Shown: piece by piece, positions 1,343 through 58,350 of the stretch
Layout: every line of letters begins with the position of its first letter
How positions within the stretch are numbered: position 1 is the first letter of the stretch
Source of the DNA: Heptranchias perlo
Lineage: Eukaryota
NCBI RefSeq assembly: GCF_035084215.1
Contig: NC_090338.1
Span: 9,362,001 to 9,426,000, forward strand
DNA: 64,000 nucleotides
Reading direction: 5' to 3'
Made by a program: the position numbers and the translations under genes
Notes under the pieces: model-generated
Seen by the model: only the letters and a program-made list of their open reading frames with translations
Database searches by the model: none
Told to the model about the DNA's origin: nothing

Positions 1343-1445
1343 CAGCTTTAAGAAATGTGCTACTCCTTGATTGGTTGTGCCTCTATAGGCTTATATCCGC
1401 CAATGACAGCGTCCAACTATGACTGGTAATCCATACAACCCCCTT
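1343..1445 (+). promoter_or_regulatory. cPcdh variable-exon promoter cassette (V1)
   Basis: CTTTAAGAAAT at 1346, ATTGG at 1370, CCAAT at 1400, GACTGG at 1421; same layout upstream of all 11 units. Confidence 0.75.
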
Positions 1446-1709
1446 CACCAACATTCGCAGGCAGAGTCTAAAATCAGAAAGCAGGCTGCGTAACGCTTTG
1501 CGAATTCTGGATATGCAGCCAGAGATGATACTCTGAAAACCACGTAGATATTTTAAAAATGGTAATGGCGACTCGATTAATCACGTAATTATTTTCGTAT
1601 AACCTCGATCTTCCTCCGATAACAAAGGAATGTGCATCGGCTTCATTCCTGGGAGATATTGAAGACTCGGCGTGTCCTGCTGAAATAATTATAATTCTGG
1701 ACGGTGGCG

Positions 1710-4181
1710 ATGGTCCTTTTTAAAATATATCGGCTGTTTAAGTGGCAAACATTCTTCCTTTTTTCCTTCTGGGAACTAGCTTCTGGGCACATTCGGTATT
1801 CGATTCTCGAAGAACTACAACTCGGCGCCTTTGTTGGGAAGATCGCAGACGATTTAGGATCGGATGTAAAACAGCTCTCAGCTCGCAATTTTCGGATTGT
1901 GTCTGGTGCAAGGAAGCAATATTTGAAGGTGAATTTAGAAAATGGAGTCCTATTCGTAAACGAACGAATTGACAGGGATCAGTTTTGCGGGCCAAGCCTC
2001 AGTTGTGTGTTGCCCTTGGAAGCCGTGATTGAAAACCCCTTGAATCTCTACCATATCGAAGTGGAGATTCTGGACGTAAACGATAATTCTCCAAGGTTTC
2101 CAAACAATCAGTTCCGCCTTGAAATTTCAGAGGTTGCGGCACCGGGAGCGCGCTTCCGTCTCGAGTCTGCGCACGACCCAGACGTCGGGACCAACTCCGT
2201 GCAAACCTACCAGCTTAGTCAAAATGATTATTTTATTCTCGACGTGCAGACAAGCAGTGAAGACGAAAAATTGCCATTCTTAGTGCTGGAAAAGACCTTG
2301 GACAGGGAAAAGCAATCGACTCACAGGTTGGTGCTATTTGCAAAGGACGGCGGGGTTCCTCCGAGGTTCAGTACCGCACAAATAATTATCCTAGTACAGG
2401 ATGCCAACGACAACGCACCTGTTTTTCCCCAATCAGTTTATAGGGTTAGCCTATTAGAAAATGTACCCAAAGGAGCCATAGTAATCAAACTAAATGCTAC
2501 TGACTTGGATGCTAGTTCCAATGGAGAAATAGTGTACTCTTTTAGCAGTCATACCCCTGTTGGAGTCCGTGAACTGTTTAATCTGGATTCCCGAACTGGT
2601 GAAATAAGGGTTAAAGGTAATCTGGACTTTGAGGAAAATAGTAGTTTTAAGATCAACGTGCAAGCAATGGACAAGGGTCCTCATGCAACCCCGGTGTATT
2701 GTGACGTGCTAGTGAACATTATTGATGTAAACGACCACGTACCTGAGGTGGCACTGACTTCTGTGTCCAGCTCAGTGCGCGAAGATGCCCTTGCAGGGAC
2801 TGTGGTGGCTCTCTTTAGTGCAGCAGACAAAGATTCTGGGGAAAATGGGCAAGTGAAATGCCATATCCCAGAAAAGCTTCCTTTCACGTTAGATTTTTCT
2901 TTGAAGAACTATTATAGAGTGCTTACACAAAAGCCACTGGATCGTGAACACATCTCCAAATATGAGATCATCATCACATGCAGTGATTCAGGGACCCCTC
3001 CTCTGATATCCAAGAAAACTATCATGGTGGAAGTTTCAGATATAAATGACAACGCACCACGATTTACGCAGCCTTTATATACAACGTATGTGATGGAGAA
3101 TAATGCGATTGGGACTTCTATATTCTCCGTGACAGCCTTTGATCCAGATGGAGGACAGAACGCTCGACTAAACTATTCTATTCTGGAGACTCGGGTTCAT
3201 GGCGCCTCTGTAGCCGGTTACATCTCCATCAAATCAGAGAGTGGTGTCATATTTTCTCAGAGATCTTTTGATTACGAGAAACTAAAACACTTTCAGGTGG
3301 AAGTTCAGGTCCAGGACTGTGGAACCCCATCACTCACCAGCAACACTTCGGTGGATATTATTATCCTTGATCAGAATGACAATGTTCCATTGATCGTGCA
3401 GCCATTACCCGAGTTCGGTTCTACAGCGATAGAGACAATGTCCAGGTTTGCTGAACCAGGTTATCTAGTTACCAAAGTATCGGCCATCGATGCTGACTCT
3501 GGCCAGAATGCTCGCCTTTCTTACCAGATTCTCCAAGCTACTGACCCTCGACTTTTCACTATTTCACCAGACACGGGTGAAATATGGGCAATTCGTAGTA
3601 TCGTGAACAAAGATGCCACCAAGCAACGGTTGGTTATTGTGGTCAAAGACTGTGGAACACGACCACTTTCTGCTACAATGACCATCATCTTGTCAGTGAT
3701 TGAAGATCATACGGAAATTCTTTCTGTTGCAAGCAATTTATCTGAGGATCCTGAGTTTGCTTACGATACAAGCATTTTCTTAGTCATCTCTTTAGGGGTA
3801 ATATCTACTATTTTGTTCGTGGTTTTAATTACCCTCTCTTTTAAAGTCCACAAGAACAGGAATGGTTTTGGTGATCACAACTGTGTCCTGAGCACTTGCT
3901 GTTGCTTTGAAGCAAGGAATTCGCTGAATGGAATTCAAAAAGCCAGTCGAAATCTTCAGATACCTCCGAACTACGTTGAAGTATTTGGGGGTGATCCACT
4001 TTCACAAAGTTACCGCTACGAGACATGTTCCACTTCAAATTCAAAGGCGAGAGACTTCATGTTCCCCAAGATGTGTAATTCATCTGCAGGAAAAATTAAT
4101 GTCAGAACTGAAACGATGGACACCGAAAACAACTCTGGCTCATCAAATCCTGAATATTTTCGGAGCACTGTAAATAATGAG
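1710..4181 (+). CDS. Clustered protocadherin variable exon V1 (signal peptide, EC1-EC6, TM, variable cytoplasmic domain); unspliced frame stops at 4196
   Basis: 830-aa ORF with IRYSILEE EC1 start, C-X5-C in EC1, repeated DxNDNxP / LDRE / DxD cadherin motifs and hydrophobic TM (IFLVISLGVISTILFVVLITL). Ends at GAG|GTGAGG donor. ATG 1710 aligns with paralogue starts. Confidence 0.93.
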
Positions 4182-5296
4182 GTGAGGCGCTTCTAAAGCA
4201 AAAACACTCCGGTTTTTATCTGGCTATGCAGCTACTCACTTGATGATTCCATTACTACGAGGTGGGCAGATGAAGGGGATATCTAAAATCCAGAGTTCTC
4301 GGTTTTCTGCACTATTTCACTTCCCAGGTAACATGCTAGATTGTGCCCCACTGCATTGCGTTGTGGTTCCGTCACGTTATCGTCCCATTCCTTTACAATT
4401 TAGTAGTTGTAGCTGTAATCTGCCTATCCATCCCTATACCCTATAAATAAACATGTTGTAAAATAGGAAACGAAGTGATAGTTGCACAATTGTCATGGAA
4501 AATGTAAAGAAAAATTAATCAAATTCCATGTGCCAATTTCCTATTGGTCCCACCTCAGGTAAAATGCAATGCTGAAGTTGCATTTTCGCTGAGAAAAGTT
4601 CAAAATAAGCAAACCTCCGAGTAGTAATTTATTGAGGAAATATTTGTAACTACCAAACATTGCCAGCACAGTCCAGTGCTAAAATAAGTTAACAGGATAA
4701 AAGTAAATGGGTATGCAGGTAAGAATGGTGAATATGTCACACTTGGTCATTGGGGACTGCCCTTGTGATGTTTACACTTTATGCACATTGTTGAGTCATT
4801 CAGAATGGAATAGCTTTACAACGAATCGTGCCGTATTATACCTTGTCTGGGACTACTTCATGCTGGAATGGGTGCCCAAATAGGTGGCAACGTTAATGCC
4901 TGTTTTCAGAACCAAGAGCCATCAACTTAATGAGCACGTGGAATTATACAAAAAATGTTAAGGAAATAAATAAATAAACAAATAACGCCAAGGGCAGGAT
5001 TAACGTGGACGATCTATATTTGAAGCATAAATAAACAATATCATTTGAAGATTTAGATATCTCCTCATGCAATTTCATGAAGGAAGCTTTAATCGAGCTA
5101 TTTTCTTTCTAGGAGCAGTTTCTGGATGAGTGATTCTGGGGTTAAAGGAATCTAATTCCAATTGATAATCGGAGACTTATGGATAACCTTGGGAATGCAG
5201 GGCAGTGAGCATGACATATGTAGTAAGTAGAACATTGGAGGGGCGATTGGTGTGAGAACAGAGGAAGACATGCATTCGGTATATGTGCTATGAGGA

Positions 5297-7721: not shown

Positions 7722-7830
7722 AAGCTTTGAGAAATGATCAGTATTCTGATTGGTAGAGTCTGGGAGTGCCTCCGTTCACCAAAACTAGCCTGAAACGTCA
7801 CTGAATCCTGACGGCCGTTTTCCCTTCCCC
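7722..7830 (+). promoter_or_regulatory. Degenerate promoter cassette of pseudogene P1
   Basis: CTTTGAGAAAT at 7725, ATTGG at 7749, CCAAA (broken CCAAT) at 7779. Confidence 0.65.
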
Positions 7831-10300: not shown

Positions 10301-10417
10301 CTCTTATATTTTACATTTGTAGAAGAAGTTCTAACTCTCCAAAATACTGAAAAGCGATTAAATACATTTTTGACTGCACAACTATAAATGCACGCTGCAG
10401 ACGCCTGGATGACATTC

Positions 10418-10530
10418 TAGCTTTAAGAAATCAACAGCATTCTAATTGGTTGAGTGTGAATATGCTTCCGTTCACCAATGAGAGGCTGAAATGTCACTGA
10501 AGATCCTGGCTGACCCTTTTTTCCTTCCCG
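10418..10530 (+). promoter_or_regulatory. cPcdh promoter cassette (V2)
   Basis: CTTTAAGAAAT 10421, ATTGG 10445, CCAAT 10475, CACTGAAGATCC 10495. Confidence 0.75.
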
Positions 10531-10790: not shown

Positions 10791-13256
10791 ATGCGATGTT
10801 ATAAAATATTTTGGGTGTTAAAATGGCAGCTGCTGTATTTTGCATTTCCCTTTTGGGACTTAGTTTCTGGGCAAATTTATTATTCGATTCCAGAAGAGCT
10901 GCAACCGGGTTCCTTTGTTGGAAATATCGCGGACGATTTGGGTTTAGATGTAAAGCAGCTCTCGGCTCGCAGTTTTCGGATTGTGTCTGGTGCCAGGAAA
11001 CAGTATTTGGACATAAATCAAGGCAGTGGGATTTTGTTTGTGAAAGAAAGAATCGACAGAGAACAGCTCTGTGAGTCAAGCCCCACGTGTGTGTTATCTT
11101 TAGAGGCCGTGATTGAAAGTCCCCTGAATTTGTACCATGTTGAAGTGCAAATTCTGGATGTAAACGACAATGCTCCCAGTTTCCCAAAGGCCCCGTTCCG
11201 CCTTGAAATCGTGGAGGTTGCTGCGCCGGGAGCGCGCTTCCAGCTCGAGTCCGCGCACGACCCAGACGTCGGGACCAACTCCCTTCAAACTTATGAGCTC
11301 ATTCCGAACGATTATTTCATTCTCGACGTGCAGACACGCATCGAAGAAGGCCAAATTCCGTTCTTAATGCTGGAAAAGCCTCTGGACAGAGAAGATCTAT
11401 TGACCCATCAGCTATTGCTAATTGCCAAGGACGGGGGGGTCCCTCCGAGGTCCAGTACAGCTCAAATAATAATCCTAGTAGGGGATGCCAACGACAACCC
11501 ACCTGTGTTTCCCCAGTCACTTTATAGGGTCAGCCTATTAGAAAATGTACCGAAAGGAACCTTGGTAATCAAACTAAATGCCACTGATTTAGATGATGGT
11601 CCCAACGGAGAGATAGTATACTCGTTTAACAGTCTTGCTTCTGTTAGAGCCCGTGAACTGTTTGACGTGGATTCCAGGACTGGTGACATCAGGGTTAAAG
11701 GCAATCTGGACTATGAAGAAAGCAGCTTATTTAAGATCAAAGTGCAAGCAATGGACAAGGGCCCTTATGCAACACCCGCGTACTGCGATGTGTTGGTGAA
11801 AATTATTGATGTAAACGATCACGCGCCTGAAGTGACACTGACTTCTTTGTCCAGTTCAATTGGCGAGGACGCTCCCGCTGGGACTGCGGTGGCGCTGATC
11901 AGTGCTGCAGACCAAGATGATGGAGAAAGTGGACAGGTGAGATGTCATATACCAAATAACCTCCCTTTCAAATTAGATTCTTCCATGAAGAACTATTATA
12001 GATTGCTTACTGAGCAGCAACTGGACCGCGAAAGTATCGCGAAATACGACATCACTATCACATGCAGTGATGCAGGAGACCCTCCTTTGGTATCCAAGAA
12101 AACTATCCAGGTGGAGATTTCAGATATAAATGACAACGCACCAAGGTTCATGAAGCCGCTGTATACTGTTCACGTTATGGAGAACAACGCTATTGGGTCT
12201 TCTATATCCTCAATGACAGCCGTGGACTCAGATTTAAATAAAAACGGTCGGCTGTTATATTCTGTCCTGGAGACTCAAATCCAGGGAGCCTCAGTAACCA
12301 CTTACGTCTCTATTAACTCAGAGAGTGGTGCCATATTTACTCGGAGATCTTTTGACTACGAGGAATTGAAAAACTTTCAGATCCAAGTTCAGGCCCAGGA
12401 CTCTGGAGTCCCACCACTCACCGCAAACGTTACGGTAGATATTACTATCCTTGATCAGAACGACAACGCCCCCGTGATCGTGCACCCATTGCCCGAGTTC
12501 GGCTCAACCGTATTAGAAACAATATCCCGGTCCGCAGAACCAGGCTATCTGGTTGCCAAGGTGTCGGCCATTGATGCTGACTCAGGAAAGAATGCTCGTC
12601 TTTCTTATCAAATTATCCAGGCTACTGACCCAGGTATTTTCACTGTTTCTCCAGATACAGGGGAAATCTGGACAATACGTAGTTTTGGGGGCAAAGATAC
12701 CATTAAACAAAGATTGGTTATTTTGGTAAAAGACAATGGAACACCATCACTTTCTGTTACAATGACCATCATCCTGTCAGTGATGGAGGCCGATACGGAA
12801 ATGCACTCTGATGCGAGCAATTTATCTGAAGATCCCAAGTTTGCTTCCGATACGAGCTTTTTCTTAGTCATCTCTTTAGGGGCAATATCTACCATTTTCT
12901 TCGTGGTTTTAATTATCCTCTCTGTTAAAGTGCACAAGAACAGGAATGGGTTTGGTGATCGTAACTGTGTCCTGGGCGCTTGCCGTTGCTTTGAGGCAAG
13001 AAATTCATTGAATGGAACTCAAAAAGCCAGTCGAAATCTTCAGATACTTCCGAACTATGTTGAAGTGTTTGGGGGTGATCCACTTTCGCAAAGTTTCCGC
13101 TACGAGACGAGTTCGACTTTAGATTCGACCAAGAGAGACTTCATGTTTCCCAAGTCGTGTCATTCATCTGGAGCCAAGCTTAATGTCAGAACTGAAACGA
13201 TGGGCAATGAAGACCATTCTAGGACGTCCAATCCTGCAAATATTGTAAATAGCGAG
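10791..13256 (+). CDS. Clustered protocadherin variable exon V2; unspliced frame runs to 13394
   Basis: 877-aa ORF with 6 cadherin repeats, TM and NYVEVFGGDPLSQSFRY motif; ATG 10791 (MRCYKIFW); donor GAG|GTGAGC. Confidence 0.93.
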
Positions 13257-13754
13257 GTGAGCCATACGGGACATAAATACAAATTAGAATTCTCAATTTT
13301 CTGCATTATTTCAATTAACAAACATGTCCCTTCAGTAGAGACCGGAAAACATTATGGTTTACCGCAGGTTACATACATATCGTTTTGCACTTAAACAGTC
13401 GGGATCACAGCCAGTCCCATAAAATCTCATGTTCGTACAATCCAGTTGCATTGCGCTCCTCCGTTCCGCTTGAAAATAAATATGTTGCAAAAAAAATTTG
13501 AAATGCCAGGTATGTCGTCCTCTCAGAAATGGCAACTCAGAATTCGCTAAATACCAAGCAATAGTTATTTTACCCCCTTCGCGTCGACCTCGGTGTAAAA
13601 TGTTGTACTAGAATCAACATTTGCCTGGACAAAAATGCAGACTAAATTCCCTAAAACTGGAGTTCATCTGAAATAATTAGCACTTTAATCAGCAGCCATT
13701 ATCACTACTAGTGCAGTAAAGGCTATTCTCCTGAGATTTACACTGATTTTGATA

Positions 13755-19139: not shown

Positions 19140-19215
19140 CAGCTTTACGATATGAAATGAAAAGCCAATGAAAAGCTGAAATGTGACTGGAGATCTTGCC
19201 CCCTCCCTTTCCACC
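19140..19215 (+). promoter_or_regulatory. Internally deleted promoter cassette of pseudogene P2
   Basis: agctttacgatatg..aaagCCAATgaaaagctgaaatgtGACTGGAGATCT; ATTGG box and spacer deleted. Confidence 0.65.
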
Positions 19216-33784: not shown

Positions 33785-33895
33785 CAGCTTTAAGAAATGT
33801 TCCGCAACGTAATTGGTTGAATTAGGGCATGACTCCATTCACCAATGAAAAGCTGAATCATGTCTGGAGATCTTCACTGCCCCCTTTCCTTCCCA
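33785..33895 (+). promoter_or_regulatory. cPcdh promoter cassette (V4)
   Basis: CTTTAAGAAAT 33788, ATTGG 33812, CCAAT 33842, GTCTGGAGATCT 33862. Confidence 0.78.
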
Positions 33896-34158: not shown

Positions 34159-36633
34159 ATGCAATATTACACAATATATTGGTTGTTGAAATGGCGACAG
34201 TTGTACTTTATGCTTCTGTTCTGGAATCTAGTTTATGGACAGATTCGATATTCGATTCCTGAAGAATTACAAGTGGGTGCCTTTGTTGGGAATATAGCAG
34301 CCGATTTAGGATTAGATGTGAAACAGCTCTCAGCTCGCCGCTTTCGGGTCGTGGGCCGTTCCAGGAAGCAGTATTTGGACGTAAAATTAGACAATGGGAT
34401 TTTATTTGTAAAGGAAAAGATTGACAGGGAACAACTCTGTGGGCCCAGCCTCGCGTGCACGCTATCTGTCGAGACTGTGCTCGAGAATCCTGTCAATCTA
34501 CACGATTTCGAAGTGGAGATTCTGGATGTAAATGACAACGCTCCCAGTTTTCCAAAAGGTCAGTTCCGCCTTGAAATCTCAGAGCTTGCGGCCCCGGGTG
34601 CGCGCTTCCCCCTCGAGTCCGCACACGATCCAGATGTTGGAACGAACTCGGTACAAACCTACCAGCTGGTCGCAAATGAATATTTCACTCTAAATGTTCA
34701 GTCGCGCAGTGGAGATGGAAAATTACCAGTGCTCGTGCTGGAAAGGCCACTGGACAGAGAAAAGCTATCGAGTCACAGATTACTGCTAATTGCCAAGGAT
34801 GGCGGAGACCCTGAAAGATCTGTCACTGCTCAAATACTGGTAATCGTTGAGGATGCAAACGACAACCTACCTGTTTTCCCGCAGTCAGTTTATAAAGTTA
34901 ACTTGTTGGAAAATGTACCGAAAGGGACCTTGGTAATTAATCTAAATGCCACAGACTTAGATGAAGGGTCCAATGCAGAGATAGTGTATTCTTTCAGCAG
35001 CCATACTTCGATTAGAGTCCGTGAACTGTTTAGTATAGATTCTAAAACTGGCAAAATCAGAGTAAATGGGGGTTTGGACTATGGGGAGCATAGTGTTTTT
35101 GAGATTAATGTGCAGGCCAAGGACAAGGGCTCTTCCGCAATACCCGTATACTGTGATGTGGTGTTGAACATCATTGATGTGAATAACCATCCACCTGAGG
35201 TGACACTAAATACTTTATTCAGTCCGGTTGGTGAAGACGCTCCGCCTGGGGCTGTCGTTGCTCTAATCAGCGTAGCAGACAAAGATTCTGGAGAAAATGG
35301 ACAAGTGCAATGTCAACTCGCAAATAGCCTCCCCTTCAGGCTTGATTCATCATCAAAGAAGTACGCGAGATTACTCACTAAGCAGCTACTTGATCGTGAA
35401 ACAACCTCTAAATACGAGGTTACTATCACATGCAGTGACTCGGGAAGACCACCTCTCACCTCCAGCAAAATCATTCGGGTGGAGCTTTCGGATATAAACG
35501 ACAATGCACCGCAGTTTGCCCAGCCTTTATATACAGCGTACGTGATGGAGAACAACGTTATTGGGGTTTCTATATTCTCCGTCACTGCTTCTGATCGTGA
35601 TTTAAATCAGAACGCTCGACTGACATACTCTATCCTAGAGAATCAGGTTCTGGGCGAGTCAGTGTACACTTACGTCCATATTAATTCAGACAGTGGTGCC
35701 CTATGCTCCCAAAGGTCATTTGACTACGAGCAATTAAAACAATTTCAGGTACAAGTTCAGGCACAGGACTCCGGAGTCCCGTCACTCACCAGCAATGTTT
35801 CGGTGGATATTATTATCCTTGATCAGAATGACAACGCCCCAGTGATCGTGCATCCATTACCTGAGTATGGATTGACAACATTAGAGACTGTGTCCCGCTT
35901 CGCAGAACCAGGCTATCTAGTCACCAAGGTGTCTGGGATTGATGCAGACTCTGGACAGAATGCTCGCCTCTCTTACCAGATTCTGCAGGCTACTGACCCT
36001 GGTCTTTTTACTATTTCATCCGACACGGGTGAAATCTGGACAATCCGTGTTATTCTGGACAAGGATCTCAGTAACCAAAGGTTGGTCATCGGGGTAAAAG
36101 ACAATGGAACACCACCCCTCTCAGCTACATTAACTATTGTCTTATCAGTAGTAGACGGTGATACAGAAATGCTCTCTGACATTAGTGGTCTGGCTGAAAA
36201 TCCACTGCTCGCTTCCGATACAAGCCTCTACTTAGTCATATCTCTAGGGGTAATCTCCTCCATATTTTTTGTGGTTTTAATTATTCTCGCTTTTAGGGTC
36301 TACAAAAACAGAAATGGTTTCGGTGACCCCAATTATTCTCTGGACACGTGCTGCTGCTTTGAATCAATGAGTTCGTTGAATGGAATTCAAAATGCAAGCA
36401 GAAATCTTCAACTAGCTCCGAACTATGTTGAAGTGTTTGGGGGCGATCCACTTTCTCAAAGATTCCGCTATGATACGTACTCCGCTTCAGATTCGACCAA
36501 GAGAGATTTCTTGTTTCCCAACGTGCGCAGTTCATCTGAACGCAAGAATAACGTCAGCGATGAGTCTGTTGGGAAAGAAGCAAACCCGCTGATGTCACGT
36601 CCTGCAGATTATACGAACGCTTTAAATAGCGAG
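34159..36633 (+). CDS. Clustered protocadherin variable exon V4; unspliced frame stops at 36648
   Basis: 840-aa ORF with [11 protein letters not shown]5-C, 6 EC repeats and TM; ATG 34159; donor GAG|GTGAGG. Confidence 0.94.
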
Positions 36634-37414
36634 GTGAGGCGATTCTAAAAAGAATCTTCATGAGTTCTATTTGGATTACCATACATGAAAATTGGGAGAT
36701 GGGGGAGATACCCAATAGTCAGAATTCTGAGTTTGTGTTGTTGCTTTATTTCCAGAATTATTTCAGGGGCCACTCCTTTATGTTGTAGAACCCCAGGTTG
36801 CATTCACTCATTGCTTAACGATTAAGCTGGATACCAATAGTACATTCTCCAAAGAAAATGCGCAATCTACGTATGGTATAAATTATTGGTATAGTTAATA
36901 GCATCTATATCTCATAAGACAACATCCCACACTCGCTTCTACAGTGTTTTATAACGGTTATGTAAGAATTGGTTGAGCCAATTCCTTACCATTGCTGTTC
37001 CATCTAATCATTCTTATTTGGTAATGGGAGATCGTCATAACAATAACATTGCTTAATATTTTAATTATGCAAGAAGTTTGATATCGGTTTCAATCAGTAG
37101 ACGTTAATATTACGATTACATCGAGTGGAATGGGGTTACCAACAAGAAGATTAAATTAGAGCCGATGTGTCTCATTCTAGTTTTCAGCAGCACATTTAAG
37201 GTTTTAACTCAATATTCATGGGGGGAGGGAGATTTATTCCGTGAGTTCGGGCAGCGAAATTACAAACCGGTTCAGTGCAAACGTTGTTTACGGTTTCCTA
37301 CACCGAACTTACAAAGGATAGTGCATAACTCCTCGCCCATGAAGCACGAAAACAAGTGCTTTTCAGGATTTTCTGGATATCTTATCCTAATGATGTAAGC
37401 TATATACTCATAGA

Positions 37415-37800: not shown

Positions 37801-37910
37801 CAGCTTTAAGAAATGCTCAGAAGCCTGATTGGTTGCATGTGTTTATGTTTCCATCACCAATCAGAAGCTGCAATGTGACTGGAGATCCTGAATGCCCCTT
37901 CCCTTCCCAT
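37801..37910 (+). promoter_or_regulatory. cPcdh promoter cassette (V5)
   Basis: CTTTAAGAAAT 37804, ATTGG 37828, CCAAT 37857, GACTGGAGATCC 37877. Confidence 0.78.
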
Positions 37911-38133: not shown

Positions 38134-40590
38134 ATGAGATATTATAAACGACACTGGCTGTTAAAATGGTCTCTGTTGTACTGCGTGTTCTCCTTCTGGG
38201 ATCTAATTTCTGGACAGATTCGCTATTCAATTCCTGAAGAGCTGCAGCTAGGTGCTTTTGTTGGGAATATCGCTGAGGATTTGGGTTTAGACGTGAAGGA
38301 ACTCTCAGCTCGCAGTTTTCGGGTTGTGCCTGGTCCCTCAAGGCAGTATTTCGACGTGAATTTGAACAATGGTAATTTATTTGTAAAGGAAAAGATTGAC
38401 AGGGAGCAGCTCTGTGGGCCGAGCGCGACGTGTGTGTTATCCTTAGAAACAGTGATCGAAAATCCTTTCAGCCTGTACGATATTGAAGTGGAGATTCTGG
38501 ATGTGAATGACAATGCTCCTACTTTTCCAAAAAATCTGTTCCACCTCGAAATCTCAGAGATGGCCGCACCGGGAAGACGCTATCCCCTTGAGTGCGCGCA
38601 CGACCCAGACGTAGGAACCAACTCACTGCAATCGTACCAGCTCGTTGCAAACGAATACTTCGCTTTAAATGTTGAGAGCCGAAATGGGAATGAAGACATG
38701 CCAGTGTTAGTTTTGGAAAAGCCCCTGGATAGAGAAAAGACATCTAGTCACAGATTAGTGCTAATTGCCAAAGACGGCGGGGTCCCTGAGCGGTCTGGTA
38801 CTGCTCAGATAATAATCAGAGTACAAGATGCCAACGACAACACACCTTTGTTCCCTCAGCCAGTTTATAGGGTAAGTCTGTTGGAAAATATACCTAAAAC
38901 AACATTGGTGATCAAGCTAAATGCCACTGATTTGGATGATAGTTCTAACGGAGAGATTGTGTACTCTTTCAGTAGTCATACCTCTGTTAGAGTCCGTGAG
39001 CTGTTTGCCTTGGATTCCAAAACTGGTGAAATCAGAGTCAAGGAAAATTTAAACTATGAAGAGAACAGTGTCTTTGAGATAAATATACAAGCAATGGACA
39101 AAGGACCTTATGCAATTCCTGCTTATTGTCACGTGTTAGTTCAGATTGAGGATATAAATGATAACGCCCCTGAGGTGACGGTTTCTACCCTGTTCAGTCC
39201 AATTCCAGAACACTCTGTGCCCGGGACGGTGGTGGCTCTAATCAGTGCAACAGACAAAGATTCAGGAGAAAATGGGCTGGTAGAATGTCAAGTTACAAAT
39301 AACCTTTCTTTTCAATTGGACTCATCCTCCAAGAAATACTTAACATTGCGTACACAACAGGTACTTGATCGTGAAAATATCTCGAGGTACGAAGTTACTG
39401 TCCTCTGCAGTGATTCAGGGTCTCCACCTCTCACATCCAAAAAAGTCATCCTGGTTGAGGTTTCGGATATAAATGACAACGCTCCACGTTTTGCACAGCC
39501 TTTATATACAGCTTACGTGATGGAGAACAATGTTATTGGGACGTCTATCTTTTCAGTGACAGCTTTTGATCCAGATTTAAATCAGAACTCGCGGTTAAAC
39601 TATTCTATCACGACGACTCAGGTTCAGGGCGAGTCAGTGCTCAATTACGTCTACATCCAATCAGAAAAGGGAGTCATATTTTCTCAAAGATCTTATGACT
39701 ACGAGATACTCAAAAACTTCCAGATCCAAGTTCAGGTCCAGGACTCTGGTGTCCCACCACTCTCCAGCAACGTCTCAGTGGAGGTAATTATCCTTGATCA
39801 GAATGACAATGCTCCGGTGATCGTGCATCCAACGCCCGAGTATGGATCTGCAGTAACAGAGACAGTATCTCGATTCGCAGAACCAGGCTATCTAGTTGCC
39901 AAGGTGTCGGCCACTGATGCCGACTCTGGCCAGAATGCTCGCCTCTCTTACCAGATTCTCCAGACTACTGACCCTGGACTTTTTACTATTTCAGTGGACA
40001 CAGGCGAAATCTGGACAATCCGTGGGATTACGAGCAAAGATGGCACGAAGCAAAGGTTGGTCATCGGAGCAAAAGACAATGGTTCACCGCCGCTTTCAAC
40101 TACAATGACAATCATCTTATCACTGACAGACGGTGATACAGAAATGTTTTCTGACGTGAGCAATTTCTCTAAAGAGCCTGGGTCCTTTGGTGACATTAGC
40201 CTTTATTTAGTCATATCGTTAGGGATAACCTCATCTATTTTTCTCGTGGTTTTAATTATCCTCGTCATTAAGGTACATAAAAACAGAAACCGGTTTGGTG
40301 CCCATAATGACTCTCTGGACACGTGTTGTTGCTTCGAAACACGAAATTCGTTGAACGAAATTCAAAAAGCCAGCAGAAATCTTGAAATAGTTCCGAACTA
40401 TGTGGATGTATTTGGGGGCGATCCACTTTCTCAAAGCTTCCGCTATGGGACGTGTTCGACTTCAGGTACGACCAAGACAGACGCTATGTTTCCTAACATG
40501 TACAGTTCATCTACATCGAAGAATAACGCCACGAGAGAGAATGAAGAAATTATCCGGAATTCAAACTGCAAGAACGCTCTAAATAGCGAG
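38134..40590 (+). CDS. Clustered protocadherin variable exon V5; unspliced frame stops at 40605
   Basis: 847-aa ORF; ATG 38134 (MRYYKRHW); 6 EC repeats, TM; donor GAG|GTGAGG. Confidence 0.94.
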
Positions 40591-41137
40591 GTGAGGTGCT
40601 TCTGAAAATAAAAACACTTTTGAGTTTGATTTGGATGTAAAGATATCCGCTAAAGTATTGAAGCGCATGGTTCTGTCTTTGTCTAGTTGATGACAGAGCA
40701 ACGGCAGGTATGAGTAAAATTCCCACATCTGAACTTGTTTTGCTATTTCTGTCCCTAATATTTATGCCTAAACAAGGCACCATTCAAGTTTTAAATTGCT
40801 ACGTCTAGGTGGTGTGTCATGGGCCATTGTGCAGAATAGCAACAATGTGCAAAGTATAGGTGAAAAGACGAGATCCGTCAAATATTGGCTAAAAGACACC
40901 AAGATTGGTTTATCGTATTTTGCATCATCAAGGAGACTGAAAGAATCAAGATATTCCACACTTTTGAGGTTCTGCGTGATAATGAGGTAGAATAGGAGAC
41001 GGTGAGATTGGCCTGAATTCGGGGAGAAGGACGAGTGGTAGATATATTCTTGAAGTTTAGGAGAAGCAAGAAAAAAAATGAGAGCACTAAAATAGGCACA
41101 GTACTATGGATAAGGCTGATAGAAAAGTTGTGATGTA

Positions 41138-44251: not shown

Positions 44252-44350
44252 TAACTTTAAGAGATGCAGAGTATCGTCATTAGTTAAATTTCAGAGTTAA
44301 TATTTTCACCAATGAGAAGCTGAAATGTGACTGGAGATCATGACAACCCG
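44252..44350 (+). promoter_or_regulatory. Degenerate promoter cassette of pseudogene P3
   Basis: CTTTAAGAGAT 44255, ATTAG (broken ATTGG) 44279, CCAAT 44309, GACTGGAGATCA. Confidence 0.68.
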
Positions 44351-46470: not shown

Positions 46471-46477
46471 AGCTAGC

Positions 46478-47206: not shown

Positions 47207-47320
47207 CAGCTTTAAGAAATACTCAGAAGCCTGATTGGTTGAATGTGATTATGTCTCCATCCACCAATCAGAAGCTGCAATGTGACTGGAGATCCTGACT
47301 GGCCCCTTCCCTTCCCATCC
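47207..47320 (+). promoter_or_regulatory. cPcdh promoter cassette (V6)
   Basis: CTTTAAGAAAT 47210, ATTGG 47234, CCAAT 47264, GACTGGAGATCC 47284. Confidence 0.78.
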
Positions 47321-47587: not shown

Positions 47588-50044
47588 ATGAGATATTATA
47601 AACGACACTGGCTGTTAAAATGGTCTCTGCTGTGCGGCGTGTTCTCCTTTTGGGATCTAATTTCTGGACAGATTCGCTATTCAATTCCTGAAGAGCTGCA
47701 ACTAGGTGCCTTTGTTGGGAATATCGCTGAGGATTTGGGTTTAGACGTGAAGGAGCTCAAAGCTCGCAGTTTTCGAATTGTGCCTGGTCCCAGGAAGCAG
47801 TATTTCGACGTAAATCTGAACAATGGTAATTTACTTGTAAAGGAAAAGATTGACAGGGAACAGTTCTGTGGGCCGAGTGCGACGTGTGTGTTATCTTTAG
47901 AAACAGTGATCGAAAACCCTTTCAGCCTGTACGATACTGAAGTGGAGATTCTGGATGTAAATGACAATGCTCCTACTTTTCCAAAAAGCCAGTTCCACCT
48001 TGAAATCTCAGAGATGGCCGCACCGGGAAGACGCTATCCCCTTGAGTGCGCGCACGACCCAGACGTAGGAACCAATTCACTGCAATCGTACCAGCTCGTT
48101 GCAAACGAATACTTCGCTTTAAATGTTGAGAGCCGAAATGGGAATGCAGACATGCCAGTGTTAGTTTTGGAAAGGCCACTGGATAGAGAAAAGACATCTA
48201 GTCACAGATTAGTGCTAATTGCCAAAGACGGCGGGGTCCCTGAGCGGTCCGGAACAGCTCAGATAATAATCAGAGTACAAGATGCCAACGACAACTCGCC
48301 TATGTTCCCCCAGTCAGTTTATAGGGTAAGTCTGTTAGAAAATATGCCCAAAGGAACATTGGTAATGAAGCTAAATGCCACTGATTTGGATGATGGTTCC
48401 AATGGAGAGATTATTTATTCTTTTACTAGTCATACCTCTGTTAGAGTCCGTGAGCTCTTTGGTCTGGATTCCAAAACTGGTGAAATCAGAGTCAAGGGAA
48501 ACTTAGATTATGAAGAGAACAGTGTTTTTGAGATAAATGTACAAGCAATGGACAAGGGAGCTCACGCAATTCCTGCGTATTGTCATGTGCTGGTTCAGAT
48601 TGAGGATATAAATGATAACGCCCCTGAGGTGACGGTTTCCACCCTTTTCAGTCCAATTCCCGAAGACTCTGCGCCCGGGACGGTGGTGGCTCTAATCAGT
48701 GCAACAGACAAAGATTCAGGAGAAAATGGGCTGGTCGAATGTCATGTCGCAAATAACATTCCTTTTCAACTGGATTCATCCTCCAAGAAATACTTAACAT
48801 TGCGTACACAACAGGCACTTGACCGTGAAAATATCTCGAGGTACGAAGTCACTGTCCTCTGCAGTGATTCAGGGTCTCCTCCTCTCACATCCAAAAAAGT
48901 CATCCTGGTGGAGATTTCGGATATAAATGACAACGCGCCCCGCTTTGCACAGCCGTTATATACAGCTTACGTGATGGAGAACAATGCTATTGGAGCGTCT
49001 ATCTTTTCAATGACAGCTTTTGATCCAGATTTAAACCAGAACTCTCGGCTAAACTATTCTATCACGACGACTCAGGTTCAGGGCGAGTCAGTGCTCAACT
49101 ATATCGACATCCAATCAGAAAAGGGAGTCATATTTTCTCAAAGATCTTTTGACTACGAGACACTGAAAAACTTTCAGATCCAAGTTAAGGTCCAGGACTA
49201 TGGAGTCCCACCACTCTCCAGCAACGTCTCAGTGGAGGTAATTATCCTTGATCAGAATGACAATGCTCCGGTGATCGTGCATCCAACACCAGAGTATGGA
49301 TCTACAGTAACAGAGACAGTATCTCGATTCGCAGAACCGGGCTATCTAGTTGCCAAGGTGTCGGCCACTGATGCCGACTCTGGCCAGAATGCTCGCCTCT
49401 CTTACCAAATGCTCCAGACTGCTGACCCTGGACTTTTTACGATTTCACCTGATACAGGCGAAATCTGGACAATCCGTGGGATTAGGAGCAAAGATGGCAC
49501 GAAGCAAAGGTTGGTTATCGGGGCAAAGGACAATGGTTCACCGCCGCTTTCAGCTACAATGACAATCATCTTATCACTGACAGACGGCGATACAGAAATG
49601 CTTTCTGACGTGAGTAGTTTGTCTGACGTTCCTGGATCCGTTGGTGACATTAGCCTTTACTTAGTCATATCATTAGGGATAACCTCATCTATTTTTCTCA
49701 TAGTTTTAATTATCCTCGCCGTTAAGGTTCATAATAACAGAAACCGCTTTGTTGCCAATAATGGTTATCTGAGCTCATGTTGTTGCTTCGAAGCACGAAA
49801 TTCTTTGAACGGAATTCAAAAAGCCAGTAAAAATCTTGAAATAGTTCCGAACTACGTCGAAGTATTTGGAGGCGATCCACTTTCTCAAAGCTTCCGCTAT
49901 GGGACGTGTTCGACTTCGGGTACGGCCAAGAGAGACGCTATGTTTCCTAACATGTACAGTTCATCTACACGCAAGAAAAACGTCACAAGAGGGAATGAAG
50001 AAATTCTCCGGAATTCGAACTGCCAGAACACTGTAAACAGTGAG
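47588..50044 (+). CDS. Clustered protocadherin variable exon V6; unspliced frame stops at 50059
   Basis: 839-aa ORF, close paralogue of V5; ATG 47588; donor GAG|GTGAGG. Confidence 0.94.
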
Positions 50045-50519
50045 GTGAGGTGCTTCTGAAAACAAAAACACTTTTGAGTTTGATTTAGATGTACAGACAT
50101 CCGCTGAAGTATTGGAACACAAGGTTCCGTCTTTGTCTAGTGATGGCCGAGAAATCATAGATATAATTAAAAGTCCCACATCTGAACTTAGTTGAAGTGC
50201 CAAGGTTCATTGTGCAGAATAGCAACAATGTGAAAAGTATAGGTGAAAAGATGAGATATGTTAAGTATTGGCTAAAGGACGCCAAGTTTGGGTTATCGTA
50301 GATTACAATAGCAAAGAGGCTGAAAAAAATCAAGGCATTCCGCACTTTTGAAGTTCTACGGCAGAATGAGGCAGAATAGGAGAGGGTGCGATTGGCCTTT
50401 ATTCGGGGAGAAAACGAATGGGTAGATACATACTTCAAGTTAAGGAGAAGCAAGAAAACAATCTGAGCACTAAAATAAGGACAGTACTATGGATACGGTT
50501 AATTGAAGAGTTGTGATGA

Positions 50520-53060: not shown

Positions 53061-53979
53061 TACGTATTAGTTCATTGCTGATTTTACTCAACGTATAGTG
53101 AGAACTAGATTCATATTCGATGTTGGCAGAAATTGTATCAAACATTTCTCCTAATCATTTGTATTGAATTCTGAAAGAAGTACAAATAATGCTATTGATT
53201 TGAACTTTATTGGTGATTTGCGTGCTGGGAGCAGAGTGATGTTAGCATTGGATAATTGAACAGTTTTCCATTGCAAGCAAAGCTATTGTGGAGCAGTCCC
53301 AGGTCAGACATAGCACAATTTAAATGCACAGTGAAGCTCCTCTTGTTTGTTTCAAAACGTGACTCAACCTCGTCGTCAATGCACTGTTCCGTAGCACCAG
53401 TACGATGTTTCACATTAACAAACTAGGCTTGGTCCATCTGAGTGAGCTTGTCAAATGAGTGACAAATTAGAGGCAGCATTGTGGAGTGGGACCACGCCCA
53501 CTGCTAACTGAGCTTAGTCTGCCCAAACTCATTTAACATAGAACTCTTACATCCGGAAGAGAGAAAAGACATTCATCCCAACAATCTCGATTGGACTATC
53601 ATCTATGCCCTAAAAGGCAAAGTGTTAAATACACGGTGCCATCTATTCCCTAATGTTGGTGTCATCGGCAGCCAACAGTGGCACAACTGTTCACTGTCGC
53701 GGAACAACAATGATGCCAAGCATAATATTAACACGATTTTAGATGTAATCTGCGGAGCACACACGAAATGAAATGGGTTGACTGAATTAAGACGTGTAAT
53801 TTTAAAATGTCTGTTTGCAGTGTGTTCTTTCATGGTGAATTTTGGAAAATTTACTCTGATACTATACTTGAAGAATAGCTGAGTACAGGATAGGAAAGTC
53901 CAAAGTAATAAAATAAAAGATTGCTTGAATTTTTGATTAGACAACAATAAATGTGGACAAAGGAATGCAAAGACGTTAT

Positions 53980-54061
53980 AGCTATAAGAGATGCAAAGTA
54001 TCGTCATTGGTTCAATTTGAGGTATTATGTTTCTCAATCAGAAGCTGAAATGTGACTGGAG
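53980..54061 (+). promoter_or_regulatory. Promoter cassette of pseudogene P4, split by a CR1 insertion
   Basis: CTATAAGAGAT 53982, ATTGG 54006, TCAAT (broken CCAAT) 54034, GACTGGAG then insertion; resumes tccatgacaacccg at 55777. Confidence 0.68.
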
Positions 54062-55776
54062 TTTGGACAAACACTGGACAAACAGGGGGCTCTAGGCGGG
54101 GAGGAGCTAAATACGATTAAAATCACAAAGGAATTGGTACTCAGTAAAATAATGGGACTCAAGGCGGATAAATCCCCTGGACCTGATGGCTTACATCCTA
54201 GGGTCTTGAGGGAAGTGGCAGTAGGGATTGTGGATGCTTTGGTAATAATTTTCCAAAATTCTCTGGACTCGGCAAAGGTCCCGGCAGATTGGAAAACTGC
54301 TAATGTAACACCCTTATTTAAAAAGGGTAGTAGGCAGAAGGCTGGAAATTATAGACCAGTTAGCCTAACATCTGTGGTGGGTAAAATTTTGGAATCTATT
54401 ATCAAGGAGACAGTAGCGGAACATTTGGATAAACATAATTTAATAGGACAAAGTCAGCATGGCTTTACGAAGGGGAAGTCATGTCTGACAAATTTGCTTG
54501 AGTTCTTTGAGGACATAACGTGCAGGGTGGATAAAGGGGAACCAGTGGACGTAGTGTATTTAGACTTCCCGAAGGCATTCGACAAGGTGCCACATAAAAG
54601 ATTATTGCTCAAGATAAAGAATCACTGGATTGGGGGTAATATTCTGGCATGGGTGGAGGATTGGTTATCTAACAGGAAGCAGAGAGTTGGCATAAACGGT
54701 TCATTCTCGGACTGGCAACCAGTAGCCAGTGGTGTTCCGCAGGGATTGGTGCTGGGTCCCCAACTCTTTACAATCTATATTAACGATTTGGAGGAGGGGA
54801 CCGAGTGTAACATATCAAAGTTTGCAGATGATACAAAGATGGGAGGGAAAGTGGAGAGTGAGGAGGACATAAAAAACCTACAGGGGGATATAGACAGGCT
54901 GGGTGAGTGGGCGGAGATTTGGCAGATGCAATATAATATTGGAAAATGTGAGGTTATGCACTTTGGCAGGAAAAATCAGAGAGCAAGTTATTATCTTAAA
55001 GGCTAGAAACTGGAAAGTACTGCAGTACAAAGGGATCTGGGGGTCCTAGTGCAAGAAGATCAAAAAGTTAGTATGCAGGTGCAGCAGGTGATCAAGAAGG
55101 CCAACGGAATGTTGGCTTTTATTGCTAGGGGGATAGAATATAAAAACAGGGAGGTATTGCTGCAGTTATATAAGGTATTGGTGAGATTGCACCTGGAAAA
55201 CTGCATACAGTTTTGGTCTCCATACTAAAGAAAAGACATACTTGCTCTCGAGGCAGTACAAAGAAGGTTCACTCGGTTAATCCCGGGGATGAGAGGGCGG
55301 ACATATGAGGAGAGGTTGAGTAGATTGGGACTCTACTCATTGGAGTTCAGAAGAATGAGAGGCGATCTTATTGAAACATATAAGATTGTGAAGGGGCTTG
55401 ATCGGGTGGATGCGGTAAGGATGTTCCCAAGGATGGGTGAAACTAGAACGAGGGGGGCATAATCTTAGAATAAGGGGCTGCTCTTTCAAAACTGAGATGA
55501 GGAGAAACTTCTTCACTCAGAGGGTAGTAGGTCTGTGGAATTTGCTGCCCCAGGAAGCTGTGGAAGCTACATCATTAAATAAATTTAAAACGGAAATCGA
55601 CAGTTTCCTAGAAATATAGGGAATTAGGGGTTACGGGGAGCGGGCAGGAAATTGGACATTAATTTAGATTTGAGGTTAGGATCAGATCAGCCATGATCTT
55701 ATTGAATGGCGGAGCAGGCTCGAGGGGCCGATTGGCCTACTCCTGCTCATATTTCTTATGTTCTTATGTTCTTATG
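54062..55776 (+). mobile_element. CR1-type LINE, ~1.7 kb RT region, relatively young
   Basis: 290-aa ORF 54134-55006 (KSPGPDGLHP, NYRPVSLTS, QHGF, AFDKVPH, SGVPQG, FADDTK); tail (ttcttatg)3. Confidence 0.92.
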
Positions 55777-56550: not shown

Positions 56551-56659
56551 GCGAACTGGAACGTCGATATTTAATGTTGCTTTACCAGCTGAAATACGAA
56601 AGGAATAAGATTGAATGGTGGTTACCATACCGAAGCATTTGAAAGCCTGTTAGTTGGAA

Positions 56660-57500
56660 ATGGAATATTTTAAAATAAGTACATTACCAAAATGAAAACT
56701 GCCATGGTTTATGCAGATTTGCCGCAAGTTGGTTTACGTACAGATTCGTTATTCGATTCCTGAAAAAATACAACTGGGTGCCTTTGTTGGGAATATTGCG
56801 GACAATTTGGGTTTAGATGCATGATAGCTCTCAGCTCGCATTTTTCGGATTGTGTATTATCCGGGAAAACATCATCTGGATGCAAATTTAAACAATGGAA
56901 TGCTGTTTGTGAAGTAATTGCTTTGTGGGCAGAGCATCACTTGCATATTGCATTAAAAGAATGTGAATGAAAAGCCCCTCAGTCCCTGATGAACCAATGT
57001 GGATATTCTACATGTAATTGACAATTCTCCGACTTTCCCAAAGAGCCAGTTCTATCTGGAAATCTCACAGTTAGTTGCACCAGAGGCGCGCTTCACCCTT
57101 AACTTTGTGTGCAAGTTCCGGACGTTGGAAGCAATTCCCTACGAGCTTGTTCTGAACGATTATTTCATTCCAAAGACACAAACCCGGAGTGCCGATGGGA
57201 AGTTTTCTGCCTTTGTGCTAGAAAACTCCTTCGAAAGAGAAAGATAGTAGAACCACAAGTTAGTCCTAATCACCACAGACTGTGGAGTCCCTAAAAGATC
57301 TGGAACAGCTTAGATAACAGTCGTATTACATGACGTCAAAAACAAGGCGCCTTTGTTTCCTGAGTCCGTTTACACGGTCGGCTCGTTAGACGACTCACCC
57401 AACTGGTAATCAAACTAAACGCTCCTGACTTGGGCGATGGTTCCAATCGAGAGGTAGTGTACTTCTTCTGCAGCCATACATCTGCTAGAGAGTGTGAGCT
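56660..57500 (+). pseudogene. 3'-truncated cPcdh variable exon P4 (duplicate of P3)
   Basis: cagattcgttattcgattcctgaa..gggtgcctttgttgggaatattgcg; ORF 56999-57247; same lesions and same truncation point as P3. Confidence 0.85.
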
Positions 57501-58239
57501 AGCAACATAGGGACATAAATAAGCCGTTCAGTCCCTCTAACCTGCTCCGTCATTCAATTAGATCATGGCTGATCTGTAACTCAACTCCAAATACCCGACT
57601 GAGCTCCACATCCTTTGATACCCTTACCCAACTGAAATTTATTGGCACCAGGATTAAAAGCTACAATTGTCCCAGCATCCACAGCCTTTTGGGGAGGGAA
57701 TTCCAGATTTGTACGACCGTTTATTTGAAAAAGTGATTCTAGATTTCCCTTCTAAATGGCCTAGCTTTCATTTTAAGATTCTGTACACGTTAGCATAAGT
57801 TGTACTAGTCCCTTAGCGGTCTTGTTCCACCTAGTTACTATTATTGGGTGAAGGGAGATCGTCATAACAATAACAGTTAATATTTTAATCATGCAAGAAA
57901 TATTAATAACGGTTCCAATAAGTGAGCGTTAATATTACGATTACTGCGAAGTGCAGTGAAGTTGTCAACAATAGCATTAAATTGGAGTTGATGTATCTGA
58001 TTCTAACTTTCAGCAGCACATTTAAGGTTTTATCAAGTCCTAACTTATGAAGCACGAAATGAAGTGTATTTTAGGATTTTGTGGATAGTTTAACCGAATG
58101 ATATACGCTTTGTGCTGATATTACAGAATATATTAACGAAGAAATATCATCCACTCAAATTTTAAAAACATTCTTGAGTTGCATTTTTGATTGAACAACC
58201 AAAAATGTGAAATCGACGCAGTGATTTTCCAAGACATTC

Positions 58240-58350
58240 TAGCTTTAAGAAATGCTCAGAAGCCTGATTGGTTGAATGTGATTCTGTCTCCATCCACCAA
58301 TCAGAAGCTGCAATGTGACTGGAGATCCTGACTGGCCCCTTCCCTTCCCA
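58240..58350 (+). promoter_or_regulatory. cPcdh promoter cassette (V7)
   Basis: CTTTAAGAAAT 58243, ATTGG 58267, CCAAT 58297, GACTGGAGATCC 58317. Confidence 0.78.

What the first reader, a model, noticed from the sequence alone, without database searches (positions are those of the whole stretch)
1343..58350. Rigidly spaced inverted double-CCAAT promoter cassette in front of every variable exon
Seen: all 11 units carry AGCTTTAAGAAAT..ATTGG..CCAAT..gaagctgaaatgtGACTGGAGATCC followed by a C/T tract, ~330-385 bp before the ATG in the intact genes. CTTTAAG to ATTGG is 24 nt start-to-start in all 10 copies where both positions exist. The ATTGG-CCAAT spacer is 25 nt in V1, V2, V3, V4, V6, V7 (24 in V5) although its sequence varies freely. 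CCAAT to GACTGG is 20 nt (21 in V1). A further ttgcacaacyataaatg motif lies ~45-50 bp upstream in most copies. Known: mammalian cPcdh promoters are defined by a CGCT-core CSE bound by CTCF; CCAAT boxes bind NF-Y. I see no CGCT-core element at a fixed position here. Inference: this lineage may use a helically phased, inverted NF-Y pair (about 3 turns apart, potentially bidirectional) as its promoter-choice element. This is the best candidate for an undescribed regulatory system in the window.
Basis: partly seen in the sequence, partly recalled or inferred. Interest (0 to 1): 0.8.

Follow-up and report, generated by a model that had tools for sequence, protein, structure and literature searches.

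The report
Shark protocadherin promoters lost CTCF box
The repeated cassette is the shark form of the known protocadherin promoter: most genes of the cluster carry the CGCT box (a CTCF-binding site in mammals) between its two CCAAT boxes, but all 19 intact genes of the last sub-cluster have lost it and are likely driven by the factor NF-Y instead.

Summary
The cassette is real (7 exact ATTGG-N24/25-CCAAT pairs in the window, 0.29 expected) and confined to this shark's clustered-protocadherin locus. It is not a lineage-wide replacement for the CSE/CTCF element; it contains it. In 46 of 47 intact variable genes upstream of the window's sub-cluster, the 25-nt spacer holds the CGCT box at one fixed place, often with a TGCAG-type CTCF upstream module 17 nt before the core. 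The window lies in the distal nu sub-cluster, where 0 of 19 intact genes have it. There the old core has drifted to neutral identity (0.55 against 0.53 at fourfold-degenerate sites), while both CCAAT boxes are invariant and have gained stronger NF-Y-type flanks. The tree makes the loss derived. 'Rigid helical spacing' is not supported: 5 of 19 nu spacers are 24, 15 or 12 nt, an indel rate equal to the 5'UTR's. Contigs show nu exons spliced to nu constant exon 1. Best reading: a whole sub-cluster of CGCT-less, likely NF-Y-driven promoters whose 25-nt gap is a fossil of the CTCF site. Precedents are mammalian C-type genes and Xenopus gamma2 15-36. No binding or start site was measured. New variant of a known kind.

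The parts
1343..1440 (+). Full cassette 1: CTTTAAG 1346, ATTGG 1370, 25-nt spacer without CGCT, CCAAT 1400
1710..4196 (+). Intact nu-type Pcdh variable exon (828-aa ORF)
7722..7830 (+). Decayed cassette (CTTTGAG 7725, ATTGG 7749, forward box CCAAA) before an exon remnant at 8117-8332
10418..10530 (+). Full cassette 2: 10421 / ATTGG 10445 / CCAAT 10475
10791..13394 (+). Intact nu-type variable exon (ORF runs on past the exon end near 13259)
19140..19215 (+). Decayed cassette, reverse box and spacer deleted, CCAAT 19165; precedes a broken exon in pieces at 19526-25773
26850..26960 (+). Full cassette 3: 26853 / 26877 / 26907, before a frameshifted exon
27233..29679 (+). Variable exon split over two frames near 28600
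33785..33890 (+). Full cassette 4: 33788 / 33812 / 33842
34159..36648 (+). Intact nu-type variable exon
37801..37905 (+). Full cassette 5, 24-nt spacer: 37804 / 37828 / 37857
38134..40605 (+). Intact nu-type variable exon
44252..44350 (+). Decayed cassette (reverse box ATTAG 44279, CCAAT 44309) before an exon remnant at 45206-46006
47207..47315 (+). Full cassette 6: 47210 / 47234 / 47264
47588..50059 (+). Intact nu-type variable exon; splice donor after 50048, joined in a contig to nu constant exon 1 (G000:C14:9510626)
53979..54065 (+). Decayed cassette (CTATAAG 53982, ATTGG 54006, TCAAT 54034, 23-nt spacer), cut off from its exon remnant (56660-57400) by a reverse-transcriptase-like insertion
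58240..58350 (+). Full cassette 7: 58243 / 58267 / 58297
58613..61084 (+). Intact nu-type variable exon

Best explanation
The cassette is the shared promoter module of this shark's clustered protocadherin variable exons; upstream sub-clusters keep the CGCT box inside it, and the nu sub-cluster in the window has lost that box, so nu promoters likely do not bind CTCF and likely run on NF-Y at two CCAAT boxes. Shown: the module, the fixed place of CGCT in 46 of 47 non-nu genes, its absence in 19 of 19 nu genes, neutral drift of the old core, invariance of both boxes, and nesting of nu among CGCT-bearing clades. Inferred: (1) the ancestral spacer is a full-length CTCF site (TGCAG module, a linker that contains the ATTGG, core, CGCT) directly followed by a forward NF-Y box. 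(2) There the reverse ATTGG overlaps the CTCF footprint and is a weak NF-Y site. (3) After CTCF loss both boxes became strong NF-Y sites set back to back, with their histone-fold halves pointing outwards, so nothing fixes the gap and 25 nt is a leftover. (4) Transcription would start roughly 60-100 nt below the forward box. (5) Without a loop anchor, nu genes would be switched on by nearness to downstream enhancers and by methylation state, more broadly than CTCF-chosen isoforms, as mammalian C-type genes are.
For: CGCT starts 9 nt before the forward CCAAT in A 26/27, B 8/8, C 12/12 and nu 0/19 intact genes (the first window gene). A CGCT+CCAAT pattern has 41 matches genome-wide, all forward, all at C14 8.09-9.32 Mb, none in nu. 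A TG[CT]A[GA]T module sits 7 nt before ATTGG in A 25/27, B 6/8, C 0/12 and nu 1/19. Its start is 17 nt before the 14-nt core, the same distance as in the IL3 insulator oligo printed in PMC12885311. Pairwise identity of the core segment: A 0.86, B 0.95, C 0.99, nu 0.55, against fourfold-site identity 0.61, 0.42, 0.65, 0.53; both boxes are 1.00 in nu (the 14 nu genes with 25-nt spacers). The reverse box is preceded by C/G in 17/19 nu and 0/47 others; forward CCAATCA occurs in 14/19 and 0/47. Both boxes are exact in 19/19 intact and 3/9 broken nu units. nu is one clade with five elephant shark nu proteins (99.9/1.0), sister to CGCT-bearing group C (94.8/1.0). A matrix of the shark CGCT element finds nothing above 6 bits from -2000 to +2700 of any nu exon. 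Contigs join nu exon ends to nu constant exon 1, and one spliced contig begins 85 nt below a nu forward CCAAT. NF-Y sits -40 to -100 from start sites and NF-YB about 15 bp 3' of CCAAT (PMC3730095, passages).
Against: No binding, start-site or single-cell data. The shark CGCT-type core differs from the canonical 14-nt CTCF consensus (recalled) at 4-7 positions, so CTCF binding even in the non-nu genes rests on homology with the mammalian CSE. Group C lacks the TGCAG module. Zebrafish and Xenopus alpha CSEs lack the CGCT box yet are still called CSEs (PMC4978886). No array of reverse CTCF sites was found in 320 kb downstream of the nu exons. nu proteins are no closer to mouse C-types than a CGCT-bearing group A protein is. 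The group contrasts come from one evolutionary event, so their Fisher p-values overstate support. That CCAATCA is the strongest NF-Y flank is recalled, not from a call. The RNA label of the runs is a guess, and two contigs run across nu cassettes.
Confidence: 0.62

Rival explanations
1. One reading: a helically phased, inverted NF-Y pair is this lineage's promoter-choice element in place of CTCF, possibly bidirectional.
For: Both boxes are invariant in 19/19 intact nu genes. 16 of 19 spacers are 24-25 nt, and two independent deletions remove exactly 10 nt, which keeps phase. The flanking distances are tight (CTTTAAG-ATTGG 24 nt in 18/19; CCAAT-GATC 27 nt in 18/19).
Against: 46/47 other intact genes have CGCT in the spacer. 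nu spacer indels match the 5'UTR rate (5 seen, 4.6 expected), whereas 0 of 47 CGCT-bearing spacers deviate. One intact gene has 12 nt, out of phase. A 15-nt-spacer gene is covered by contigs. Identical boxes in every gene give no evident means of choosing.
Confidence: 0.1
2. nu promoters are still CTCF/cohesin-chosen and stochastic, through a non-canonical, indirect or distant CTCF site; only the CGCT letters have gone.
For: CSEs without a CGCT box are reported for zebrafish and Xenopus alpha genes. An orphan CGCT-bearing cassette with both CCAAT boxes mutated stands at the 5' edge of nu (C14:9337507). The AGCTTTAAG and GATC blocks are kept and unexplained.
Against: No residual constraint in core or upstream module in nu (0.55 and 0.37 identity). 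0 of 19 nu promoters have a canonical core within 2 mismatches. The exonic site at about +360 averages 4.1 mismatches in 17 nu genes.
Confidence: 0.15
3. The conserved CGCT-type spacer of the upstream genes binds some other factor in sharks, so the nu change is the loss of an unknown site rather than of CTCF.
For: 4-7 mismatches to the recalled canonical core, including the usually fixed AG.
Against: CGCT box at a fixed place before Pcdh exons, as the CSE is defined. TGCAG module at the CTCF distance. The 5'-most single gene has GATGGCGC, closer to the canonical 3' half.
Confidence: 0.09
4. The cassette is only a by-product of tandem duplication and gene conversion, with no selection on the boxes.
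For: The copies are paralogues; four nu genes are about 90% identical.
Against: Boxes are 1.00 identical beside neutral sites at 0.53, decay in 6 of 9 broken units, and the module persists across groups only about 50% identical in protein.
Confidence: 0.04

Closest known systems
Pcdh conserved sequence element (CSE, CGCT box, CTCF site) of mammals; CGCT element also reported in elephant shark
   Same: Same module: fixed position before each variable exon, forward orientation, CGCT box in 46/47 upstream shark genes (definition; shark report cited).
   Different: In this shark it lies about 230-330 nt before the ATG (about 200 in mouse), is flanked by inverted CCAAT boxes, and is absent from the whole nu sub-cluster. 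Whether mammalian CSEs also abut a CCAAT box could not be checked: the sequence logos and source papers were not available.
Mammalian CSE-less isoforms (alpha-C2, gamma-C4, gamma-C5, beta1)
   Same: No CSE; the C-types sit at the 3' end next to the constant exons.
   Different: These are four single genes; here 19 intact paralogues. C-type expression is constitutive and biallelic in Purkinje and cortical neurons but unknown for nu. nu shows no specific C-type protein affinity.
Xenopus tropicalis pcdh-gamma2 15-36
   Same: A contiguous block of 22 isoforms without CSE (PMC4978886).
   Different: It carries an uncharacterised 13-bp motif whose letters I could not see (figure only) and groups with gamma-C4/C5. 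In the shark the ancestral module is traceable base for base and CCAAT boxes remain.
Multi-CCAAT NF-Y promoters
   Same: CCAAT in either orientation, 40-100 nt above the start.
   Different: Back-to-back pair inherited from a CTCF-site scaffold; no evidence of required phasing.

Membership tests
Clustered Pcdh variable-exon promoter | Fixed position upstream of large single-exon cadherin ORFs in a tandem array spliced to constant exons | tested here: met
CSE (window's nu promoters) | CGCT box at a fixed distance from the ATG | tested here: not met
   0/19 intact nu genes
CSE (upstream shark groups A-C) | CGCT box at a fixed distance from the ATG, forward orientation | tested here: met
   46/47; 41 forward, 0 reverse matches
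CSE / CTCF site | Match to the canonical CTCF core | tested here: inconclusive
   4-7 mismatches of 14 in groups A-C, 6-11 in nu, against a recalled consensus
CSE / CTCF site | Upstream ZF9-11 module (TGCAG) at the proper distance from the core | tested here: met
   A 25/27, B 6/8 at 17 nt; not in C (0/12) or nu (1/19)
CSE / CTCF site | CTCF binds, methylation-sensitive | not testable with these tools
   needs ChIP or EMSA
NF-Y site | Intact CCAAT pentamer with conserved flanks, under purifying selection | tested here: met
   both boxes exact in 19/19 intact nu genes, 3/9 broken units
NF-Y site | 40-100 nt upstream of the start site | tested here: inconclusive
   one spliced contig begins 85 nt below a forward box; contigs cannot map starts
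NF-Y site | NF-Y occupancy and loss of activity on mutation | not testable with these tools
   needs CUT&RUN and reporters
Helically phased NF-Y pair | Spacer length conserved above the neutral indel rate | tested here: not met
   5 gap patterns in 25 nt against 4.6 expected at the 5'UTR rate
C-type Pcdh | Protein groups with alpha-C/gamma-C isoforms | tested here: inconclusive
   PDB scores favour C-types for the nu protein but equally for a CGCT-bearing group A protein; no tree with mammalian rows
C-type Pcdh | Constitutive, biallelic expression in single neurons | not testable with these tools
   needs single-cell allele-resolved RNA

The most novel reading that the evidence does not exclude
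The ancestral Pcdh promoter is a composite CTCF/NF-Y switch, and sharks turned a whole 19-isoform sub-cluster into CTCF-independent, NF-Y-driven promoters by one loss of the CTCF site. This gives either a large deterministic C-type-like set or a second, CTCF-free way of choosing isoforms, converging with the CSE-less block of Xenopus gamma2.
Probability: 0.3. Interest if true: 0.75.

Novelty: new variant of a known kind. Interest (0 to 1): 0.5.

Why it matters
CTCF-anchored promoter choice is the standard model for how neurons pick protocadherin isoforms, and how CSE-less isoforms are regulated is named as open in the review read (PMC7811963). This locus holds 47 promoters of the CGCT-bearing groups (46 with the box) and 19 without, on one alignable scaffold in one genome. 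That is a natural experiment: one can ask directly whether the box decides stochastic versus broad expression, and it names NF-Y as a candidate driver.

Tried and rejected
Undescribed lineage-wide element: rejected. Dispersed repeat: rejected; 22 of 22 DNA matches and 55 of 56 pattern matches lie in the cluster. Rigid phasing: not supported. C-type ancestry of nu by PDB scores: not discriminating. A shifted CSE or exonic CTCF site in nu: none found. Downstream reverse CTCF array: no excess in 50-kb bins to 9.826 Mb. Other sharks' promoters: 0 matches in metagenome contigs; no eukaryote relatives were available, so conservation of the loss across chondrichthyans is untested. Sequencing runs: no RNA holder listed on record. 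Only contigs were laid (5 of 10 runs), so strand, level and start sites are not shown. No contig covered the cassette at 47210, which is no evidence either way. The C/T tract as a 3' splice tract was considered and not tested; the one 5'UTR intron seen lies further down. Landmark script misplaced the reverse box in three non-nu genes and missed the first window gene; I took those four. Earlier scan findings: none. Papers not held: the elephant shark cluster paper, the CTCF structure paper, the mouse-human and gene-conversion papers and the 2012 looping paper. One supplement file each of PMC3333863 and PMC4978886 was not searchable and bioRxiv supplements are closed; any of these may show CSE flanks with CCAAT or state which shark sub-clusters lack CGCT.
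Full report
Setting. The window is G000:C14:9362001-9426000 of a 3.25-Gb genome. Proteins on a contig of the same length are labelled Heptranchias perlo by their source. It holds 6 intact, 1 frameshifted and 4 remnant protocadherin variable exons. An EC1 search gave 105 hits, 99 of them in a cluster at C14 7.68-9.50 Mb. I examined 96 of the 99, leaving out 3 weak pseudogene hits. 69 are intact (at least 750 codons from EC1): 3 single divergent genes, group A (27; 8.05-8.80 Mb), B (8; 8.86-8.96), C (12; 9.14-9.32) and the window's group (19; 9.35-9.50). Group C has its own constant exon at 9328602. The window's group is followed by constant exons at 9510622, 9513062, 9549500, 9588336 and 9592910, three of which match elephant shark nu tails. 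It is therefore the nu variable array.

Observation. The cassette is real: 11 copies in the window, 7 with both boxes exact, against 0.29 expected. The stated registers hold. The four imperfect copies all precede broken exons. Genome-wide, 22 of 22 DNA matches and 55 of 56 exact pattern matches (control 0) are in the cluster, all on one strand.

What the spacer is. A profile search found weaker copies before the group C genes. Aligned, their 25-nt spacer contains GTCGCTGTC directly before CCAAT. Over the cluster, CGCT starts 9 nt before the forward CCAAT in A 26/27, B 8/8, C 12/12 and nu 0/19. A CGCT+CCAAT pattern has 41 genome-wide matches, all forward, all between 8.09 and 9.32 Mb. The CSE is defined as a CGCT box at a fixed distance from the ATG, bound by CTCF (PMC7811963, passages; PMC4978886, passages and section 18). 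A CGCT element was reported for elephant shark (PMC2926608, passage citing a paper I could not read). In A (25/27) and B (6/8), but not C (0/12), a TGCAGT-type word begins 17 nt before the 14-nt core. That is the distance between upstream motif and core in the IL3 insulator oligo (PMC12885311, passages; upstream motif also in PMC11417384, passages). The reverse ATTGG thus lies in the linker of a probable full-length CTCF site. Against this, the shark core has 4-7 mismatches to the canonical consensus, which I recalled, so CTCF binding is inferred from homology. The 5'-most single gene has the same module with GATGGCGC and a 27-nt gap; the two other single genes lack CGCT at that place.

What happened in nu. 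nu forms one clade with five elephant shark nu proteins (SH-aLRT 99.9, aBayes 1.0), sister to group C (94.8/1.0), inside CGCT-bearing groups when rooted on the 5'-most gene (76 rows, 55 rows with 8 group A sequences). The loss is therefore derived and probably single. In the 14 nu genes with 25-nt spacers, the old core has pairwise identity 0.55 and the upstream-module segment 0.37, against 0.53 at fourfold sites; both boxes are 1.00. In A, B and C the core is 0.86, 0.95 and 0.99 against 0.61, 0.42 and 0.65. The reverse box is exact in 19/19 nu and 37/47 other genes, and preceded by C/G in 17/19 and 0/47; the forward box reads CCAATCA in 14/19 and 0/47. Flanks matter for NF-Y binding (PMC3730095, passages); that these are the best flanks is recalled. 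Both boxes are exact in 19/19 intact and 3/9 broken nu units (several broken units are copies of one another). No shifted element was found: a matrix of the shark CGCT element scores under 6 bits within -2000 to +2700 of each nu exon, and 0/19 nu promoters hold a canonical core within 2 mismatches. The exonic position about 360 nt into EC1 is a near-perfect site in only 2 group A genes and averages 4.1 mismatches in 17 nu genes.

Spacing. All 47 non-nu genes keep the 25-nt register (correcting three misplacements). In nu it is 25 in 14, 24 in 2, 15 in 2 and 12 in 1. Five gap patterns in 25 nt equal the 5'UTR rate (4.6 expected). The gaps on either side are tighter (1 seen against 3.1 and 4.1 expected; not significant). 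The simplest reading is that CTCF geometry fixed the length and nu inherited it. NF-YB lies about 15 bp 3' of CCAAT, so back-to-back trimers would point away from the gap (inference).

Activity. No run is on record as RNA; I laid contigs of 5 of 10 listed runs. A contig identical to window 49888-50048 continues into letters found once in 464 kb, at nu constant exon 1. Contigs of a second organism do the same at two other nu exons. One contig skips a 102-nt GT..AG intron in a nu 5'UTR and begins 85 nt below the forward CCAAT, within the -40 to -100 range for NF-Y. Two other contigs cross nu cassettes with unknown strand; nu exons lie in introns of upstream isoforms, so this decides nothing. CGCT-less nu exons are thus spliced to the constant region, but starts and direction are unmapped.

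Mechanism. I commit to this: ancestral module = CTCF site plus forward NF-Y box; nu = CTCF site lost, two strong NF-Y boxes, no loop anchor, activation by enhancer proximity and methylation state, probably broader expression (confidence 0.62). The sequence steps are shown; binding, start sites and expression mode are inferred. The AGCTTTAAG, GATC and ttgcacaac..taaat blocks occur in CGCT-bearing groups too (the last in group C) and have no assigned factor. No reverse CTCF array was seen downstream to 9.826 Mb.

Comparison and novelty. CSE-less promoters are known: alpha-C2, beta1, gamma-C4 and gamma-C5 in mammals, and the Xenopus gamma2 15-36 block with its unseen 13-bp motif. One nu protein scores best with C-types among comparable PDB constructs, but so does a group A protein, so I do not file nu as C-type. 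Ten library searches listed no paper whose title or abstract start describes CCAAT/NF-Y in Pcdh promoter choice or a CSE-less shark sub-cluster. The key shark and CSE source papers were not held, so prior description is not excluded. Other papers seen: PMC3333863 (passages, methods part 1; supplement unsearchable), PMC2764143, PMC1852091, bioRxiv 525543 and 2023.09.27.559875 (passages), PMC7087399 (supplement search only). None added CSE flank sequences. Verdict: new variant of a known kind, interest 0.5.

Noticed in passing
G000:C14:9337507-9337591 (L038): Orphan cassette at the boundary between group C's constant exon and nu: CGCT kept in a TTTAGGGCGCTG context while both CCAAT boxes are mutated, the reverse of the nu pattern. 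Could be a retained boundary site; the nearest exon is a broken one 2.4 kb on.
   Followed up: partly
L042 (C14:7899077) and L098 (C14:9115278): Two single, divergent intact Pcdh genes keep the module outline but lack CGCT at the usual place, like mammalian CSE-less single genes; the 5'-most gene (L041) keeps CGCT with GATGGCGC.
   Followed up: partly
window 125-140, minus strand: CTCF-like word one G shorter than the canonical core, the only such match in 664 kb; a related AGTAGAGGCAC word is conserved about 45 nt above ATTGG in most group C promoters.
   Followed up: partly
about 360 nt into EC1 of each exon (PLESA codons): CTCF-like site about 720 nt below the CSE core, near the reported distance of the mammalian exonic site: 1 mismatch in two group A genes. 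Serine is AGC/AGT outside nu, but TCN (or cysteine TGC) in most nu genes.
   Followed up: partly
L007:2396-2499: 102-nt GT..AG intron in a nu 5'UTR, seen in one contig.
   Followed up: partly
C14:9448299-9470155 promoters (L003-L005): In four nu genes GACTGG has become GATTGG, a third (reverse) CCAAT box 21 nt below the forward one.
   Followed up: no
C14:9328602-9328757 (L037): Group C is spliced in other sharks to a short constant region that maps to a single exon here.
   Followed up: partly
window 37700-61100 and L001: Recent tandem duplications: four about 90% identical nu genes interleaved with related decayed units.
   Followed up: no
window 8451-9173, 14010-14492, 21299-23228, 54152-55006: Reverse-transcriptase-like (LINE-type, label from recall) fragments between and inside exons; they break two units.
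   Followed up: no
C14:9567000-9582500 (L015-L016): A tandem repeat of about 15 kb in an intron of the nu constant region.
   Followed up: no
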